NCBI GenBank assembly: GCA_963755915.1
Contig: CAVWLP010000003.1
Coordinates: forward strand, 896,001-960,000
Length of the DNA: 64,000 nucleotides
Reading direction: 5' to 3'
From: an uncultured Phycisphaerales bacterium
GTDB taxonomy: Bacteria; Planctomycetota; Phycisphaerae; Tepidisphaerales; Tepidisphaeraceae
Below the pieces are notes generated by a model, which saw nothing but the letters and a program-made list of their open reading frames with translations, was not told the origin of the DNA and ran no database searches. Positions 21,976 to 33,452 of this stretch are shown here, piece by piece (the first letter of the stretch is position 1; each line of letters starts with the position of its first letter). The position numbers and the translations under genes were made by a program.

Positions 21976-23332
21976 TGTTTTGTTCCAGGACATAGATAAC
22001 ACCTCTCTCAGGACATAGGTAACACTTTTTGTGTGCTGTGCCGAGCCGGAGGGAGCGCAGCGACCGGAGGCTCGGCACAGCACACAACTCGCCGACGGCC
22101 TCGGCTGATTTCCTTCAGATTGACGCCCGCCACTGTTTGTCTGGCATAGACCACGGCCATTATTCCATCCGCCGCGGTCAACCGAATCGCTACCGTCTCG
22201 CCCGCAAAGGCAATGCCCAAACGCCACTCGATGCTCCGGAAGGCGAACAGCCCATTGCGATCCACCTTTCTCACCTGGTCACCGGCAAGGTACTCCACCT
22301 TGAGATCAGGCTCGTAAGCCCGAGGACTTTTGCCGTAGCGGCTGGCCGGAACCGCCAGACCCAACGCCTCGTGGGGACGCACGCAATTGTACTGCTCACG
22401 CCAGGGGTCGAAATGCTTCTGGGCATCAGCCATATTGGCCAGCGGCTGACGCATCAGCAGCTCCTCTTTAAGCGTTCGATGCAGACGCTCGTCCTTGCCT
22501 TGTGTTTGCGGGTGACGCGGACGGCCGTGACATACTCCCACGTTCTGACGCAACAGCCACAGACCCAAACGCGTGTACCCTTGCCGTTCCTGCCCATGCC
22601 AGGTGCCCCACGGAGGACCGTTGTCGCACAAAATCCTCAGCGGCAGGCCATTTTGCTGGAATAGTCGCACCAATGCGGGCTTCACATCCTGCTCGGTCTC
22701 ACCCGTGCATGCCTGCAGGCAAAGACAATAACGTGAGTGATCATCCAGCACCGTCAGGGCATGGCAACGCCGCCCGTTGCCCAAGGCGAAATGTCCCTTG
22801 AAGTCCATCTGCCAAAGGTCATTGGGCTGATCGTGCTCAAAGCGTTGAAACGCCCGGTGCTGTGATGATCGAGCCGGATCGATCAGTCCACCGCGAAATA
22901 AAATACGCCCGATCGTGCTCACCGCAGGCAACGTCGCCGGATCCCGACCCTGATTCTCCAGCAGCTTCCTCAGCTTGCGGCCTCCCCACACCGGATGCTT
23001 CATGCGAAGCCTCACAACCGCCTGCCTCATCCGGCCGTCCACCTGTGCGGGACTGGCGTGCGGGCGACGCGAACGATCCAACAATCCCGCCTGACCCTCG
23101 GCACGATAACGCCGGAGCCATTTGTAACCACAGCGCCGGCTGATTCCGAACCGTCGGCAAAGCGCTGCCAGGTTAGCATCCGCCCGCATAGCCAGTTGCA
23201 CAAACTCACCGCGAACTTCGTTCGTCACACATTCCTTCCAGGGCATCGGCCTCCTTTTTGGCCGTGATACCCAAAATGAAATGTGTTACCTATGTCCTGA
23301 GAGACCTGTTACCCATGTCTCCGGTCTATACA
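21976..23332 (-). mobile_element. IS481 family insertion sequence
   Basis: TGT...ACA ends with a repeated (A)GGACATAG(G/A)TAACA motif at both ends, enclosing the transposase. Confidence 0.9.
22008..23246 (-). CDS. IS481 family transposase
   Basis: MPWKE start, HTH (LCRRFGISRRCGYKW), rve DDE core (WQMDFKG, LDDHSRY, DNG, PQTQGKDERLHRTLK). Confidence 0.96.
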   Translation of the reverse strand: MPWKECVTNEVRGEFVQLAMRADANLAALCRRFGISRRCGYKWLRRYRAEGQAGLLDRSRRPHASPAQVDGRMRQAVVRLRMKHPVWGGRKLRKLLENQGRDPATLPAVSTIGRILFRGGLIDPARSSQHRAFQRFEHDQPNDLWQMDFKGHFALGNGRRCHALTVLDDHSRYCLCLQACTGETEQDVKPALVRLFQQNGLPLRILCDNGPPWGTWHGQERQGYTRLGLWLLRQNVGVCHGRPRHPQTQGKDERLHRTLKEELLMRQPLANMADAQKHFDPWREQYNCVRPHEALGLAVPASRYGKSPRAYEPDLKVEYLAGDQVRKVDRNGLFAFRSIEWRLGIAFAGETVAIRLTAADGIMAVVYARQTVAGVNLKEISRGRRRVVCCAEPPVAALPPARHSTQKVLPMS

Positions 23333-23522: not shown

Positions 23523-24344
23523 TCACCGCGCGGAGCGGGATTGGGGGCCGCGGCGACGGAGGAGGAGGCCGCATGCTCCCAGGCTCAGGAGGCAGAGGCT
23601 TGCGGGCTCGGGGACGACCGCGCCGGCGGTTTGTAGTTGGAAACCGTTGAAGAAGGCCTGGGCTCCATTGTTTATGCCGTAGGTGCCGGTGATCTGGCCG
23701 GAACTATTGGGAACGAGGTTGGAGTATTCGACGTAGACGATGCCGAGGGTCGATGTGGAGATTGTGGTTGAAGTGTAATCGGTGCCGCTGGTGATGGCGG
23801 CGCCGGAGGTAGACTACGGATTGGTGTTGGAGCCGGCGCTGCTGATGATGTCGAACTTCGTTCCGTAACTTCCGCCGGAGTCGTGCGTCCAGCCGTAAAG
23901 ATAGAGGTCGTAGGTCGTCGTGGTGGACAAACCGCCGATGGTGAAGTCTCCTGTTGAATAATCCGCCTGGCATTGATCGATCAGGTCGTTGCTGGTGTCC
24001 AGGGTCGAGCCGGGACTGTAGAGGAAACTATTGGTGGTACTTATGGTGACACTGGTGCTGTTTCCGTTTGAATCCTCCAGAGTGCTTGGGGGGGTGATGA
24101 TGATGCTGTTCCAGTCGTGGGCGTCGGGCGTGGTGAGGGCGCCCTGGCCGGTATAGTCGCCAGCGTCGGCGGTGAACTGGACGTTGACGGTGCTGACGGG
24201 GCTGGCGTTTGCCGCCGATGACCAGGCGGCCAACGCGAAAGCGGCGGCGGCGGCGCAGGTCAAAAAGCGATTCTCGGCGCCGGTCGCGACACGCAGACGG
24301 GCCGCGAGGCGGCCATGGATTCCATTGGCCTTTTTAAATCGCAT
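23523..24344 (-). CDS. PEP-CTERM sorting domain protein (frameshift near 23820)
   Basis: Signal peptide, Ser/Thr-rich body, C-terminus read from the minus strand as FNGFQLQTAGAVVPEPASLCLLSLGACGLLLRRR, stop at 23523. Confidence 0.85.
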
Positions 24345-28763: not shown

Positions 28764-29345
28764 CTATCCCGCAATCGGCCCCAAGATCGGCTGTGGCCCG
28801 ATCACATCCGCCGAAAACGTGCGCAGCTCCGCCCCTGGCTCCTTCCACGCGGTCTCGGCGACGCCGAGTTTTTCTGTGCACAGGCGGCCGAGGAGCTGTT
28901 CGCGCGACCAGCCGGTGTCGCGGGCGACCTGGGGGAGGAAAAGCCCGGTGCGGCCGCGGAAGGTGAGGTGGATGCCGTCGCGCGTCGGTTCGAAATCGAG
29001 GGCGGATTTTTTTTTCTCGAGCGGGCCGAGGATACTCAGCTCGAGGGTGAGTTCGGGAAGCTCGCCGCGCGAGACGGGGTTGGTGAGGAAGCGGGCATCG
29101 CCGATGACGGACTCGGCGGCGTTGACGAGGGTTTCGCGAAGGGGGCGGCCGGTGTCGAGGACACCGATGCAGCCGCGCAGCATGTGGGTGCCCTGGCGAT
29201 GGAGGGAGACGAAGCACCCGGCGGGCTGGGCAAACACAGGATCGTCAAGCGTGGGGATCGGGCGCGGGTCGCCGCCAAGCCGGCGGATGATCACGTCGGC
29301 CGCGAAATCGAGGATCTGCTGCTGAACTTGTGTCGAAAAATCCAT
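28764..29345 (-). CDS. amrA: AmmeMemoRadiSam system protein A (AMMECR1 domain)
   Basis: GCFVSLH, LRGCIG, DARF, ELSIL, DGI and FLPQVA motifs. Confidence 0.93.
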   Translation of the reverse strand: MDFSTQVQQQILDFAADVIIRRLGGDPRPIPTLDDPVFAQPAGCFVSLHRQGTHMLRGCIGVLDTGRPLRETLVNAAESVIGDARFLTNPVSRGELPELTLELSILGPLEKKKSALDFEPTRDGIHLTFRGRTGLFLPQVARDTGWSREQLLGRLCTEKLGVAETAWKEPGAELRTFSADVIGPQPILGPIAG

Positions 29346-29399
29346 CGAAAATATTTTTGGCCGGTGGAAGTATACCGAAAAGTACAGGGGGTGGTCACT

Positions 29400-29516
29400 T
29401 TATCCACCGGGTTATGCACCGGCAATCTTTTGGTGGGTCAAGCAGTTAGGGAAATCGGTGGATAACCGAATCGGAATAGAGCGAAAAAATAGGGGAAAAG
29501 GGTGGAGAGTGGATAT
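29400..29516. promoter_or_regulatory. Cluster of DnaA-box-like 9-mers
   Basis: TTATCCACC 29400-29408, TTATGCACC 29412-29420, GGTGGATAA 29457-29465, weaker AGTGGATAT 29508-29516. Confidence 0.4.
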
Positions 29517-29691
29517 ATTTTCCTTCGTCGTTGGGCACGAAAGTGACCGGCGAAACAGGAGAACGCTCCTGACAAACAGACCGACTTTCGAAATGCGAAA
29601 GACCGTGCGAAGCAACAAAGAGCGGGCACGGCGAAAGTCGGTGGCCAGCGACCAGGCCACCCGATGAAAGCGGCGTCAAAAACGCCCATTC

Positions 29692-30002
29692 AGGCAATCC
29701 GGGTTAGAGTCGCCGCCAGTGATCTGTCCACCGCGGAGAGAAATCCTCCCGATAAAGGACAGGTTGAGCCCAAAATGCCGCGAGTGTTCTGGTAACGGAA
29801 TGCCGAGCGGCGCGGATCCTAGGAGTGGGCTCAGGATAGCGTAATCCCACGGCCGTCCAGTCGGGAACCCGCTGTGCCGCCCTGTTGGGCGAGCGATCGC
29901 GGCGGCAACAGTCGCGATCGAACCGTCTGTGTGAAGCGGTAGTCAACTGCCCTTTCACGCTGAGCGGACCGAGGCGGGCCCAGGCCCAGGAGCAGGTTGC
30001 CT
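29692..30002 (+). ncRNA. Putative large structured non-coding RNA of unknown class
   Basis: Closing stem 29692-29699/29995-30002 encloses at least 8 helices. G-U pairs are consistent with the + strand, there is a GUAA tetraloop, and no credible ORF. Confidence 0.6.
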
Positions 30003-30157
30003 ACAGAATCGGTTCGATACCAGAATTTGGCGGTTTAAGCCGCAAGGCGCAAGCCGACATAGGGCCCACGCGGTGACGTCGCGAGTCACTTCGTGGGCCA
30101 TCTGGTTTTTATCGGGAGGGGAGATTGGGGGAAGGGACCCCCGCTGCTCGTCACGAG

Positions 30158-30278
30158 AAATCCGAAACCAGAAACCAGAAATCCGAATCAAATCAGAATA
30201 TCCAAATGACGAATGGTCGTCATTCTGGTTTCGTCATTCGGGCTTGATTCGGATTTCTGGTTTCTGGTTTCGGGCTTA
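30158..30278. repeat. Heptamer-based palindromic repeat (AAATCCGAAACCAG.../...CTGGTTTCGG)
   Basis: Long imperfect inverted repeat downstream of the PEGA gene, related to 21937-21958 plus 23351-23460. Confidence 0.8.
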
Positions 30279-30290
30279 TTTCGGCAGGGT

Positions 30291-30722
30291 TTACTTCGGT
30301 TTCGTCGTCGGATAGTGCGTCGTCTCCATCAACGCCTTTTCCTGCTGCGCTCGCTCCATAATCCCCGGCGGTGCTTCGCTTTCGGCCGGCTTTGGCGTCA
30401 GCGTGTAGTGCAGATAATGGTGGTCCTTGATGGGAATCGGCAATAGCTCGCTCACTATATCCAGGGGAATCCATTGGTAAATCGGCGCGATGACTTTGGC
30501 CTTGGTCCGGATCGTTTCGTAATCGTCGTGGCGGATCGTGATTTCGTAGGTGCCGTACCAGGTGAAATCGCCGGAGACGGGCGTGCGGCCCCATTCGCTG
30601 TTGTTGAGCTGAACCAGGGCGCCGGGCGGATCGGTCTGGACCGTCAGGATGCGCTCGACGCAGCCGGCGGTCGCGAAAGGCAGAATGGCAACGCATCCGA
30701 GCAGGACCTGGTGAGGCTTCAT
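30291..30722 (-). CDS. PEGA domain lipoprotein
   Basis: TAGC lipobox, LTVQTDPPGALVQLN..GRTP, YGTYEITIR. Confidence 0.85.
   Translation of the reverse strand: MKPHQVLLGCVAILPFATAGCVERILTVQTDPPGALVQLNNSEWGRTPVSGDFTWYGTYEITIRHDDYETIRTKAKVIAPIYQWIPLDIVSELLPIPIKDHHYLHYTLTPKPAESEAPPGIMERAQQEKALMETTHYPTTKPK

Positions 30723-33379: not shown

Positions 33380-33452
<73 letters not shown>

What the first reader, a model, noticed from the sequence alone, without database searches (positions are those of the whole stretch)
29692..30002. Unannotated large multi-helix RNA
Seen helices (+ strand): AGGCAATC/GGTTGCCT (29692/29995), GATCTGTCC/GGACAGGTT (29721/29757), GAGCCCA/TGGGCTC (29766/29826), TGCCGC/GCGGCG, GTGTTCTG-GTAA-CGGAATGC (GNRA loop), CACGGC/GCTGTG, CGCCC-TGTT-GGGCG, CGATCGCGGC/GTCGCGATCG (29894-29920), GTGAAG..GGTAG-TCAA-CTGCC..TTTCAC. 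Mismatches are mostly G-U on this strand, and there is no credible ORF. It lacks the RNase P GAGGAAAGUCC core, the SRP GGAAGGAAGCAG core and tmRNA tRNA-like ends. From memory, segments such as GGTTAGAGTCGCCGCCAGT, TGCCGC..GGCGAG and GGTAG..ACTGCC resemble the raiA-motif RNA of Bacillota/Actinomycetota; that resemblance is unverified. Inference: a divergent, enlarged raiA-like RNA or a new ncRNA class in Planctomycetota.
Basis: partly seen in the sequence, partly recalled or inferred. Interest (0 to 1): 0.8.

Follow-up and report, generated by a model that had tools for sequence, protein, structure and literature searches.

The report
New large structured RNA in Tepidisphaeraceae
A roughly 580-base, intricately folded RNA that matches no catalogued RNA family is encoded here and turns up in many soil RNA libraries; it is confined to one group of planctomycete bacteria and its job is still unknown.

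Summary
On 29 homologues, 139 pairs in 22 helices are 96.5% canonical. 68 pairs show changes on both sides, against 33 in shuffles and 20-31 in slid controls. Two pseudoknots covary in 72 sequences. No Rfam 15 family matches, raiA included. RNase P, tmRNA and SRP RNAs lie elsewhere in the genome. There is no conserved ORF. Contigs of three RNA libraries from three studies cover only 29535-30077. The core model hits 55 of 141 genomes of one family labelled Tepidisphaeraceae, and 0 of about 130 genomes of 20 other families of the class. Three DnaA-box-like 9-mers sit at fixed distances upstream. They form the only such cluster in the 6.6-Mb assembly. An invariant palindrome, CCUAGG, changes only to forms that stay largely self-complementary. 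Verdict: a new large RNA class. Function is unknown. My best guess is a stable scaffold RNA, possibly a symmetric dimer, with DnaA-dependent transcription.

The parts
29400..29408 (+). DnaA-box-like 9-mer 1 (TTATCCACC), 127 nt before the RNA start
   Evidence: The position is fixed in homologues. It belongs to the only cluster of 3 or more such boxes in the 6.6-Mb assembly.
29412..29420 (+). DnaA-box-like 9-mer 2 (TTATGCACC), at -115
   Evidence: The fifth base varies among homologues (G, A, T, C), as at the N of the recalled consensus TTATNCACA.
29457..29465 (-). DnaA-box-like 9-mer 3 (GGTGGATAA as read on the + strand), at -70, inverted
29514..29519 (+). Conserved TATATT, read as a -10 element
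   Evidence: Alignments (T15, A16, A18 and T20 are at least 90% conserved in A1). The consensus scan did NOT call a + strand promoter, because there is no -35 match.
29527..30110 (+). The non-coding RNA gene (about 580 nt including the terminator)
   Evidence: Conservation; covariation; contigs of RNA libraries covering 29535-30077.
29528..29553 (+). P1 (UCGUUG/CGGCGA) enclosing a GAAA-capped hairpin (29536-29545)
   Evidence: helices 1 and 2: 97.1% and 98.9% of cells paired; helix 2 has 2 of 3 pairs with changes on both sides.
29565..29570 (+). 5' strand of the long-range helix H3 (GCUCCU), pairing with AGGAGC at 29988-29993
   Evidence: 61-67 of about 70 canonical per pair, with C-G to U-A changes. 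The competing local hairpin keeps only 3 pairs.
29579..29642 (+). H4 (10 pairs) enclosing H5b, CCGUGC (29603-08) / GCACGG (29626-31)
   Evidence: helix 4: 6 of 10 pairs with changes on both sides. H5b pair 141-169 is GC 63, CG 5.
29693..29699 (+). 5' strand of pseudoknot H8 (GGCAAUC), pairing with GGUUGCC at 29995-30001
   Evidence: helix 8: 99.0% paired, 4 of 7 pairs with changes on both sides. pair 291-631: CG 53, UA 13, AU 1. Crossing with H3 and H7 is shown.
29721..29765 (+). H9 enclosing hairpin H10 (29735-29749)
   Evidence: helices 9 and 10: 5 of 6 and 5 of 5 pairs with changes on both sides.
29766..29832 (+). H11 (GAGCC/GGCUC) enclosing weak H12, the GUAA-capped hairpin H13 (29784-29803) and the palindrome strand
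   Evidence: helices 11-13: H13 has 7 of 8 pairs with changes on both sides; H12 is only 70.7% paired.
29818..29823 (+). Palindrome CCUAGG within the invariant GAUCCUAGGA (29815-29824)
   Evidence: 76 distinct sequence contexts keep CCTAGG. The variants are CCATGG (L076, L259), CCTGGG (L016) and CCCAGGG (L264). Mean predicted unpaired probability is 0.59, against 0.35 for the whole RNA.
29860..29985 (+). 3' core domain closed by H15/H16 and containing H17, H18, H19 and H20; model R1 was built on 29855-30001
   Evidence: H15 and H16 are nearly invariant. H17-H20 show changes on both sides in 2 of 7, 3 of 8, 6 of 10 and 4 of 4 pairs.
29965..30016 (+). Pseudoknot H21: CGGACCGA (29965-72) with UCGGUUCG (30009-16)
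   Evidence: helix 21: 99.1% paired; seven pairs are canonical in 72 of 72; pair 603-650 is AU 45, GC 14, GU 13.
30063..30110 (+). Interrupted G+C-rich hairpin (30063-30099) followed by CUGGUUUUU, read as the transcription terminator
   Evidence: helix 22: 14 pairs, 8 with changes on both sides, 98.0% paired. The terminator scan did not call it, because its T run starts more than 2 nt after the stem.
28764..29345 (-). Divergent neighbour gene for an AMMECR1-domain protein (context, not part of the RNA)
   Evidence: Pfam PF01871, E 1.1e-34. Adjacent in most close homologue loci.

Best explanation
Window 29527 to about 30110 (+) is an independent gene for a stable structured non-coding RNA of about 580 nt. 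It belongs to a family that no catalogue holds. SHOWN: the RNA folds into about 22 helices. Three long-range pairings bind its 5', middle and 3' parts into one body: H3 (29565/29988), pseudoknot H8 (29693/29995) and pseudoknot H21 (29965/30009). It is present in RNA libraries. It has no conserved ORF. Its downstream neighbours vary and here converge on it, so it is not a leader of a downstream gene. It occurs in about 40% of sampled genera of one family labelled Tepidisphaeraceae. It is mostly single-copy, and relatives carry versions that I estimate at about 760 to 1000 nt, grown by insertions in hairpin loops. INFERRED: (a) It acts in trans as an architectural RNA, a scaffold for proteins or an RNA-only assembly of the kind shown for OLE, ROOL and GOLLD (about 0.5). 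(b) The invariant, predicted-unpaired palindrome CCUAGG pairs with the same segment of a second molecule, giving a symmetric dimer or higher oligomer (about 0.25-0.3). (c) Transcription starts about 7-8 nt after a conserved TATATT and is governed by DnaA bound to three boxes at -127, -115 and -70, which would tie the RNA level to replication-initiation status (about 0.4-0.5). (d) The neighbouring AMMECR1 enzyme, predicted in print to act on RNA, may bind or modify it but is not obligatory (about 0.15).
For: Structure. On A1 (29 sequences), 139 pairs are 96.5% canonical against 89.1% in shuffles. 68 pairs have changes on both sides, against 33.3 +/- 3.1 in shuffles (0 of 500 reach it) and 20-31 when partners are slid by 1-3 columns. 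The covariation score is 0.294 against 0.050-0.078 slid. RNAalifold on its own finds 137 pairs, 60 of them compensatory. H8, H21 and H5b covary in 72 sequences.

Strand. The + strand folds with z -6.07 and the - strand with z -3.30. Invariant U-G pairs, for example 492-619 in 29 of 29, exist only on the + strand.

Not a known family. Rfam gives 0 matches at the locus at E<=10 and 0 for six divergent homologues at E<=1. raiA, OLE and ROOL models give nothing there. RNase P (294.4 bits), tmRNA (137.8 bits) and SRP RNA (61.7 bits) lie elsewhere. Weak full-length 6S candidates lie elsewhere in 8 of 24 family genomes.

RNA libraries. 18 RNA runs from 13 studies are listed as holding 46-67% of the sampled words. 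Of the three laid, from three studies, contigs run 29536-30066 (X2), 29537-30077 (X6, tiled) and from 29535 (X9). Summed word depths are 13.9, up to 7,808, and up to 409,723. DNA run X1 runs on across both flanks at depth 1.1-8.9.

Stand-alone gene. The terminator hairpin covaries (8 of 14 pairs). Downstream genes differ between loci.

Distribution. DNA search finds it in 17 of 41 relatives, 12 of 12 in the genus. Model R1 hits 8 of 151 class genomes, all in family f1, and 55 of 141 family genomes in 32 of 76 genera. The genome-collection pattern scan gave 30 species, all MAGs labelled Tepidisphaeraceae, Tepidisphaerales, Phycisphaerales, Phycisphaerae or Planctomycetota. The metagenome scan gave at least 120 stretches. 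Viral contigs gave 0.

Boxes. Of 31 non-redundant loci, 17 carry three boxes at about -127/-115/-70, 8 carry two, 2 carry one and 2 carry none; 2 cannot be judged. The three-box pattern occurs once per genome in 16 of 121 family genomes, with 0 matches of the reversed control. 15 of those 16 loci have the RNA core downstream; the 16th is cut by a contig end. Ten AMMECR1 loci in RNA-negative genomes have no box and no core: best 10.7 bits, E 0.25, filters off. Loci where the RNA has left AMMECR1 (L042, L050, L055, L017) keep one or two boxes.

Palindrome. See the parts list. Precedent: palindromic loops that switch between palindromes mark intermolecular kissing loops in OLE and GOLLD (PMC12286853, passages of section 8).

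AMMECR1. 47 of 55 RNA-positive genomes hold the gene against 28 of 86 RNA-negative ones (my tally). It has a RAGNYA nucleic-acid-binding fold and a role in RNA metabolism has been suggested (PMC2034487, passages).
Against: No function is shown. Everything beyond 'a structured RNA that is present in RNA libraries' is inference.

The consensus scan called neither a + strand promoter nor the terminator.

RNA contigs cannot show true ends, strand or level. Their depths sum over relatives at 95% likeness or more. Their 5' ends (29535-29537) lie 8-10 nt inside the conserved P1 strand, so the mature 5' end is uncertain.

The identity of the 9-mers as DnaA boxes rests only on likeness to the recalled consensus. 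No such boxes lie near either dnaA-like gene, and no second cluster marks an origin. One lineage (L029) has the RNA without any box.

The palindrome varies very little: 4 sequence types. One variant (CCCAGGG) leaves a central A-A. The outer U-A is lost in 7 of 77 metagenome sequences with a site found within 3 mismatches. Predicted unpaired probability is below 0.5 in 6 of 27 sequences.

The AMMECR1 association is confounded by relatedness and is not obligate. Eight RNA-positive genomes lack the gene, among them G199 (1 contig, 98% complete) and G058 (97%).

Helices H12 and H14 and the register of H5 and H19a remain uncertain.
Confidence: 0.72

Rival explanations
1. It is a divergent, enlarged raiA-motif RNA.
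For: Both RNAs are structured stand-alone RNAs, and raiA is reported as very abundant (PMC12968392, abstract seen in the listing).
Against: RF03072 gives no match at the locus at E<=10, and the best hits in the genome are 14.2 and 10.7 bits elsewhere against a gathering score of 101.3. Six divergent homologues hit nothing in Rfam at E<=1. The length is about 580-1000 nt against a 209-position model.
Confidence: 0.02
2. It is a catalytic RNA, a new large ribozyme, and not a scaffold.
For: A compact pseudoknotted core is built by long-range pairings. Invariant unpaired or junction stretches persist across sequences about 70% identical: GAUCCUAGGA, CCAGUCGGGA, ACCGUCUG, GCUGA, CGAGGCGG. GNRA loops are frequent.
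Against: There is no substrate, no cleavage signature and no link to a processing pathway. RNA contigs span the whole molecule without an internal break in X2. Conservation of this kind is equally seen in RNAs that bind proteins.
Confidence: 0.1
3. The locus is, or belongs to, the chromosomal replication origin or a DnaA-titrating site, and the RNA is an origin-associated transcript.
For: It holds the only cluster of three DnaA-box-like 9-mers in the 6.6-Mb assembly. The three-box pattern is single-copy in 16 genomes. No box cluster lies near the two dnaA-like genes.
Against: GC skew shows no minus-to-plus switch at C3:925 kb; locally it turns from plus to minus. There are only three boxes in 66 bp. 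L029 keeps the RNA but has no box. The 86 RNA-negative family genomes would then need another origin. In single-contig genomes the RNA lies at 2.50 of 5.54 Mb (G213) and 5.64 of 7.19 Mb (G199), though the contig start points are unknown.
Confidence: 0.07
4. It is a cis-acting leader or riboswitch of a neighbouring gene.
For: It is long and structured and ends in a terminator-like hairpin, as many leaders do. In L029 a gene starts on the same strand right after it.
Against: In the window both downstream genes are on the opposite strand. Downstream families differ among loci: PEGA, DUF1275, CheW, SUFU, QRPTase, DUF2961, TetR. No Rfam riboswitch matches. Laid RNA contigs reach no further than 30077, with some depth to 30100.
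Confidence: 0.02
5. It is a mobile-element or phage RNA, in the way ROOL and GOLLD occur in prophages or as guide RNAs accompany transposon nucleases.
For: A few genomes hold 2-3 copies (G262, G010). One truncated copy sits among repeats (L080). A dispersed palindromic repeat lies 45 nt downstream in the window.
Against: It is single-copy in G000 and most genomes. The upstream neighbour and promoter region are conserved across genera. Viral contigs gave 0 matches. No transposase or nuclease gene is adjacent.
Confidence: 0.03

Closest known systems
OLE RNA (Rfam RF01071; about 610 nt, Bacillota)
   Same: Similar size. It is a many-helix fold supported by covariation, a stand-alone RNA confined to one lineage, and was of unknown biochemical role when found. 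OLE forms a symmetric dimer, and one of its palindromic loops covaries between palindromes (PMC12286853, passages). Here a conserved palindrome likewise changes only to largely self-complementary forms.
   Different: No sequence or structure match. Different phylum. No OLE-associated protein genes nearby. Dimerisation here is only inferred.
ROOL and GOLLD RNAs (large RNAs that form RNA-only cages)
   Same: Large, ornate RNAs supported by covariation whose size varies by insertions. Intermolecular kissing loops are conserved (PMC12286853, passages).
   Different: No match to ROOL or to any Rfam family; that GOLLD is among the 4227 models is my recollection. No prophage context and 0 viral contigs. 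Chromosomal position is conserved.
raiA motif RNA (RF03072)
   Same: A stand-alone structured RNA reported as very abundant, function unknown (PMC12968392, abstract seen in the listing).
   Different: The model test failed. The present RNA is about three to five times longer. It occurs in a different phylum.
Bacterial RNase P RNA (RF00010)
   Same: A core assembled by long-range helices and pseudoknots that join distant segments, with invariant junction nucleotides, stable and abundant (the comparison of architecture is recalled).
   Different: No model match at the locus. A regular RNase P RNA scoring 294.4 bits lies at C2:2765112. Distribution is narrow, not universal.
DnaA-box clusters outside the origin (E. 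coli DARS/datA; B. subtilis DnaA-box clusters) and DnaA-regulated promoters
   Same: A tight group of three 9-mers that agree with TTATNCACA in 8 of 9 positions, with the variable base at the N position, away from the skew-predicted origin. The comparison families are recalled, not tested.
   Different: Here the cluster is locked at fixed distances to the promoter of a large non-coding RNA. Binding by DnaA is untested, and no other boxes are recognisable in the genome.

Membership tests
raiA motif RNA (RF03072) | Match to the family covariance model at or above 101.3 bits | tested here: not met
   No match at the locus at E<=10. In the whole genome the best hits are 14.2 and 10.7 bits, at C2.
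raiA motif RNA (RF03072) | Length of about 200 nt (model of 209 positions) | tested here: not met
   The conserved, covarying element spans about 580 nt here and, by my estimate, up to about 1000 nt in relatives.
RNase P RNA, bacterial type A (RF00010) | Match to the covariance model; one copy per genome | tested here: not met
   No match at the locus. The genome's RNase P RNA is at C2:2765112-2765517, 294.4 bits.
tmRNA (RF00023) and SRP RNA (RF00169) | Match to the covariance model | tested here: not met
   tmRNA is at C2:2332877 (137.8 bits) and SRP RNA at C2:2063898 (61.7 bits). Neither model matches the locus.
6S RNA (RF00013) | Match to the model; rod-like fold of about 185 nt with a central bubble | tested here: not met
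   No 6S match at the locus. Sub-threshold full-length 6S candidates (29.5-41.4 bits) lie elsewhere in 8 of 24 family genomes. The fold here is branched and pseudoknotted.
OLE (RF01071) and ROOL (RF03087) | Match to the covariance model | tested here: not met
   No match at E<=10 in the genome. None of the 14 control genomes rang for these families either, so sensitivity is unproven. The all-family scans also gave nothing.
Large ornate bacterial RNAs (a descriptive group: OLE, ROOL, GOLLD) | More than 500 nt with many covariation-supported helices and tertiary pairings | tested here: met
   About 580 nt, 22 helices, 68 of 139 pairs with changes on both sides, two pseudoknots.
Large ornate bacterial RNAs (descriptive group) | Homo-oligomer held by symmetric intermolecular pairings | tested here: inconclusive
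   The palindrome CCUAGG is nearly invariant, and its three variant types stay self-complementary except for a central A-A in one. Physical assembly cannot be tested with these tools.
DnaA-controlled promoter / DnaA-box cluster | 9-mers matching the consensus TTATNCACA (recalled) | tested here: met
   TTATCCACC, TTATGCACC and TTATCCACC (inverted) each agree in 8 of 9 positions. The N position varies among homologues. It is the only such cluster in the genome.
DnaA-controlled promoter / DnaA-box cluster | Binding by DnaA and an effect on transcription | not testable with these tools
   Two dnaA-like genes exist. There is no binding or expression test.

The most novel reading that the evidence does not exclude
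This would be the first 'ornate' large RNA class of Planctomycetota. It would be a pseudoknotted RNA of about 580-1000 nt that assembles into a symmetric RNA-only dimer or oligomer through its invariant CCUAGG palindrome. Its synthesis would be switched by the replication initiator DnaA through three phased boxes, so that an abundant structural RNA reports on, or feeds back to, chromosome-replication status. The neighbouring AMMECR1 enzyme would be its modifier or partner.
Probability: 0.15. Interest if true: 0.92.

Novelty: categorically new. Interest (0 to 1): 0.85.

Why it matters
Large, intricately folded bacterial RNAs outside the translation and processing machinery are rare: OLE, GOLLD, ROOL, HEARO and raiA are the few named examples (list recalled). 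Each has opened new biology or new RNA architecture. This one comes from a poorly studied soil phylum. It already has deep natural sequence variation (more than 100 sequences in hand) for structure inference. It is present in many public soil, root and litter RNA libraries. It also offers two concrete handles for experiments: a conserved palindrome that predicts self-assembly, and a promoter with DnaA-box-like sites. It is a ready target for cryo-EM and a new test case for RNA structure prediction. If the DnaA link holds, it would be a new kind of connection between replication control and a structural RNA. It may also give the uncharacterised AMMECR1 family a candidate substrate.

Tried and rejected
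1. Known families. Rfam at gathering scores over the whole window gave only a tRNA. At E<=10 over 29300-30350 it gave five plant or animal microRNA-precursor models (20.7-40.6 bits; gathering scores 80-200) on the inverted repeat 30155-30282, and sodF sRNA (18.8 bits, E 3.3) at 30031-30100. I treat all of these as chance.
2. The consensus promoter and terminator scan called nothing for the + strand RNA. The promoter and terminator are my reading of conserved sequence.
3. Origin of replication: rejected on GC skew and on L029.
5. An intramolecular partner for the palindrome (UCCUG at 29567-71, flagged). By my reading of the L076 sequence, it is not kept there, while self-complementarity is.
6. 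AMMECR1 as an obligate partner: rejected, because 8 RNA-positive genomes lack it.
7. The raw all-against-all covariation lists were dominated by relatedness, and I used them only as leads. The first palindrome regex was out of register and was discarded. Many 'variants' were false anchors on the 5' strand of H11 and were dropped. In one search, simple best-match extraction failed for 5 of 20 loci (L245, L247, L253, L261, L264).
8. Flanks without cover in the RNA runs. 29250-29508 had no cover in X2, X6 or X9. Beyond 30100, X2 and X6 had none and X9 had word depth 1-1.7 at 30138-30211. DNA run X1 covers both flanks. The loose letters at 29535, 29537, 29544 and 30077 look like Illumina adapter (recalled).
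9. Literature. Five searches found no description of this RNA. A preprint on structure discovery in metatranscriptomes mentions neither Planctomycetes nor soil (find only).
10. Earlier notes of this scan: three look-ups, nothing.
Full report
WHAT IS THERE

It has no Rfam match at gathering scores or at E<=10. A DNA search showed one copy in the window's genome. It also showed homologues of 78-98% identity over the whole query in all 12 other genomes of the genus and in 2 further genera, with partial matches of about 78% in 2 more. None turned up in 16 genomes of 12 other families of the class.

The conserved block runs from about 29527 to about 30110. A further conserved stretch lies at 29393-29465.

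IS IT A KNOWN HOUSEKEEPING RNA? NO.

- RNase P RNA (294.4 bits), tmRNA (137.8 bits) and SRP RNA (61.7 bits) all lie on another contig.
- 6S was not found in this genome. Sub-threshold, full-length 6S candidates lie elsewhere in 8 of 24 genomes of the family, so this RNA does not stand in for 6S.
- The raiA model gives only 14.2 and 10.7 bits, elsewhere in the genome. OLE and ROOL give nothing. For OLE and ROOL no control genome rang, so those two searches prove little on their own.
- Six divergent homologues also hit no Rfam family at E<=1.

STRUCTURE

I collected homologues from the species-representative genome collection with a three-motif pattern. That gave 30 species, all MAGs labelled Tepidisphaeraceae, Tepidisphaerales, Phycisphaerales, Phycisphaerae or Planctomycetota. 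After removing 11 duplicates, 31 distinct sequences remained. I aligned 29 of them (A1). L012 was left out because it is truncated, and L015 because it contains N and comes from an unpublished genome.

- RNAalifold predicts 137 pairs, 60 with compensatory changes.
- A curated structure of 139 pairs in 22 helices is 96.5% canonical.
- It has 68 pairs with changes on both sides. Shuffles give 33.3 +/- 3.1, and 0 of 500 reach the observed value. Partners slid by 1-3 columns give 20-31.
- The covariation score is 0.294 against 0.050-0.078 slid.

Adding 43 further non-redundant full-length sequences from metagenomes and genomes gave 72 in all. They confirm two crossing pairings:
- H8, GGCAAUC 29693-99 with GGUUGCC 29995-30001. 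One of its pairs reads CG 53, UA 13, AU 1.
- H21, CGGACCGA 29965-72 with UCGGUUCG 30009-16. Seven of its pairs are canonical in 72 of 72, with AU/GC/GU exchange.

They also favour CCGUGC/GCACGG over alifold's alternative. A third long-range helix, H3 (GCUCCU 29565-70 with AGGAGC 29988-93), is better kept than the competing local hairpin. So the 5', middle and 3' parts form one body.

No ORF is conserved, and 225 of 270 indel events are not multiples of three.

GENE BOUNDARIES AND PRESENCE IN RNA LIBRARIES

The conserved RNA begins with GUCGUYG at 29527, 7-8 nt after a conserved TATATT (29514-19). It ends in an interrupted 14-pair G+C-rich hairpin (30063-99; 8 pairs with changes on both sides) followed by CUGGUUUUU. 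The simple consensus scan called neither a promoter nor this terminator, so both are my readings.

Eighteen metatranscriptome runs from 13 studies (soil, root, leaf litter) are listed as holding 46-67% of the sampled words of 29400-30200. I laid three of them, from three studies, and one DNA run, on 29250-30350.
- RNA-library contigs cover 29536-30066 (X2, one 531-nt contig with no differences), 29537-30077 (X6, tiled) and from 29535 (X9).
- Summed word depths are 13.9, up to about 7,800, and up to about 410,000.
- The DNA run covers both flanks at low depth.
- By the tool's own caveats, contigs cannot prove ends, strand or level, and depths sum over close relatives.
- Three studies stopping within 3 nt of each other where DNA goes on is a weak hint of the 5' end.
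- The loose letters at these ends look like sequencing adapter (recalled).

I conclude that the RNA is made and is probably abundant and stable. Its exact ends remain to be mapped.

DISTRIBUTION AND VARIATION

A covariance model of the 3' core (R1) hits 8 of 151 genomes sampled across the class, G000 included. All 8 are in family f1: 7 of 20 sampled f1 genomes besides G000, and 0 of about 130 genomes in 20 other families. It hits 55 of 141 genomes of the family, in 32 of 76 genera, and 24 of 72 high-quality genomes.
- Most genomes have one copy. G262 has three and G010 two. G132 has one plus a truncated fragment among repeats.
- Relatives carry much larger versions. From the spacing of conserved motifs I estimate about 760 nt in L075 and about 1000 nt in L077 and L079. 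They have grown by insertions in hairpin loops.
Viral contigs gave none.

PROMOTER REGION

Three 9-mers that agree with the recalled DnaA-box consensus TTATNCACA in 8 of 9 positions lie 127, 115 and 70 nt before the RNA start. The third is inverted. The variable base sits at the N position.
- Of 31 non-redundant loci, 17 have all three, 8 have two, 2 have one and 2 have none; 2 cannot be judged.
- This is the only cluster of three or more such boxes in the 6.6-Mb assembly, under both a strict and a relaxed pattern.
- The three-box pattern occurs exactly once in 16 of 121 family genomes, with no match of the reversed control.
- In 15 of those 16 loci the RNA core follows. The 16th is cut by a contig end.

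The boxes go with the RNA, not with the divergent AMMECR1 gene. Loci where the RNA sits next to other genes keep one or two boxes (L042, L050, L055, L017). Ten AMMECR1 loci in RNA-negative genomes have no box and no RNA core.

GC skew gives no sign of an origin here, and one lineage (L029) has the RNA without boxes. I therefore read the boxes as a regulatory or titrating site and not as oriC. That DnaA binds them is untested. No similar boxes lie near the two dnaA-like genes.

NEIGHBOURS

The upstream divergent gene encodes an AMMECR1-domain protein.
- tblastn finds it in 34 of 49 fetched loci; these loci include duplicates.
- By my tally it is adjacent in 22 of 31 non-redundant loci.
- Downstream genes vary.
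- Across 141 family genomes, 47 of 55 RNA-positive and 28 of 86 RNA-negative genomes hold an AMMECR1 gene (tally). Relatedness confounds this, and 8 RNA-positive genomes lack it. In many RNA-positive genomes the gene is on another contig.
- A published fold analysis predicts AMMECR1 to be an uncharacterised enzyme with a nucleic-acid-binding fold and a possible role in RNA metabolism (PMC2034487, passages). This is a lead, not a finding.

THE PALINDROME

The invariant GAUCCUAGGA (29815-24) lies in a long unpaired strand between H12 and H11. Its centre, CCUAGG, is self-complementary.
- 76 distinct sequence contexts keep it.
- The only variants are CCAUGG (two genera), CCUGGG (G-U pairs) and CCCAGGG (a central A-A).
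- The outer U-A is lost in 7 of 77 metagenome sequences in which a site was found within 3 mismatches.
- No second copy exists in cis. By my reading, a candidate cis partner is not kept in the CCAUGG variant.
- Predicted unpaired probability averages 0.59 against 0.35 for the whole RNA, and exceeds 0.5 in 21 of 27 sequences.
- The same signature, a palindromic loop switching between palindromes, marks intermolecular kissing loops in the cryo-EM structures of OLE and GOLLD (PMC12286853, passages).
- With so few variants this stays a hypothesis (about 0.25-0.3).

VERDICT

This is a real structured RNA of about 580 nt, present in RNA libraries and matching no catalogued family. It is confined to part of one planctomycete family. 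It works like the 'ornate' large RNAs in size, fold complexity, probable abundance and possible self-assembly, but it is not a member of any of them.

The best-supported mechanism is a trans-acting scaffold RNA whose promoter carries DnaA-box-like sites. A catalytic role is not excluded. The function is open.

Counts, and loci L015, L084 and L225, include one unpublished genome (G014). The structure statistics do not.

Noticed in passing
window 30155-30282: A 128-nt near-perfect inverted repeat, rich in GAAACCAGAAA units, lies 45 nt after the RNA and overlaps the 3' end of the ORF at 30220-30696. It is a dispersed element: BLAST finds about 49 places in the genome and copies at other positions in L003-L005. 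It drew chance hits of microRNA-precursor models.
   Followed up: partly
window 29400-29465 (G000:C3:925400-925465): This is the only cluster of DnaA-box-like 9-mers in the whole 6.6-Mb assembly. No comparable cluster lies near either dnaA-like gene (C2:2.25 Mb, C2:1.09 Mb) or at the skew minimum (C2, about 0.44 Mb). The origin of this genome is therefore not recognisable by boxes.
   Followed up: partly
Read laying on window 29721-29846 (run X9): Three RNA-library contigs join 29721 or 29723 directly to 29846, skipping 122-124 nt: helices H9-H13, the palindrome and part of H11/H14. Depths are 388 and 1221, but the shorter side is only 21-22 letters. This could be a relative lacking that domain, template switching across the base of the domain, or an assembly artefact.
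   Followed up: no
L080 (G132:C71, around 23571-23707): A truncated copy of about 135 nt of the 3' core lies between two kinds of short tandem repeats. It is followed by an ORF that looked to me like a REP-associated or IS200-type transposase; that was judged by eye, not tested.
   Followed up: no
L016 = L054 (G017:C20): The 3' two-thirds of the RNA is conserved, but the about 300 nt where the 5' domain should lie does not align, although AMMECR1 is still upstream. Other genomes of the same genus (G221, G250) have the normal three boxes and RNA core.
   Followed up: no
G000, many places (e.g. C2:55705, C2:574059, C3:144899): The Bac_DnaA model gives dozens of identical weak hits (32.2 or 22.4 bits) in ORFs of 334 or 304 aa. 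They look like helper ATPases of a multi-copy insertion sequence. An IS481-like transposase lies in the window at 22008-23246.
   Followed up: no
window 33380-33452 (+): A tRNA gene (Rfam tRNA, 70.5 bits), 3.3 kb downstream. It is the only Rfam match at gathering score in the window.
   Followed up: no
family f1 genomes, e.g. G005:C67:8177-8403, G017:C8:82012-82250: 6S RNA candidates in this family are 200-240 nt long and score below the Rfam cut-off (29.5-41.4 bits against 46.4). Other families of the class score above it. This suggests a divergent, longer 6S in Tepidisphaeraceae.
   Followed up: no
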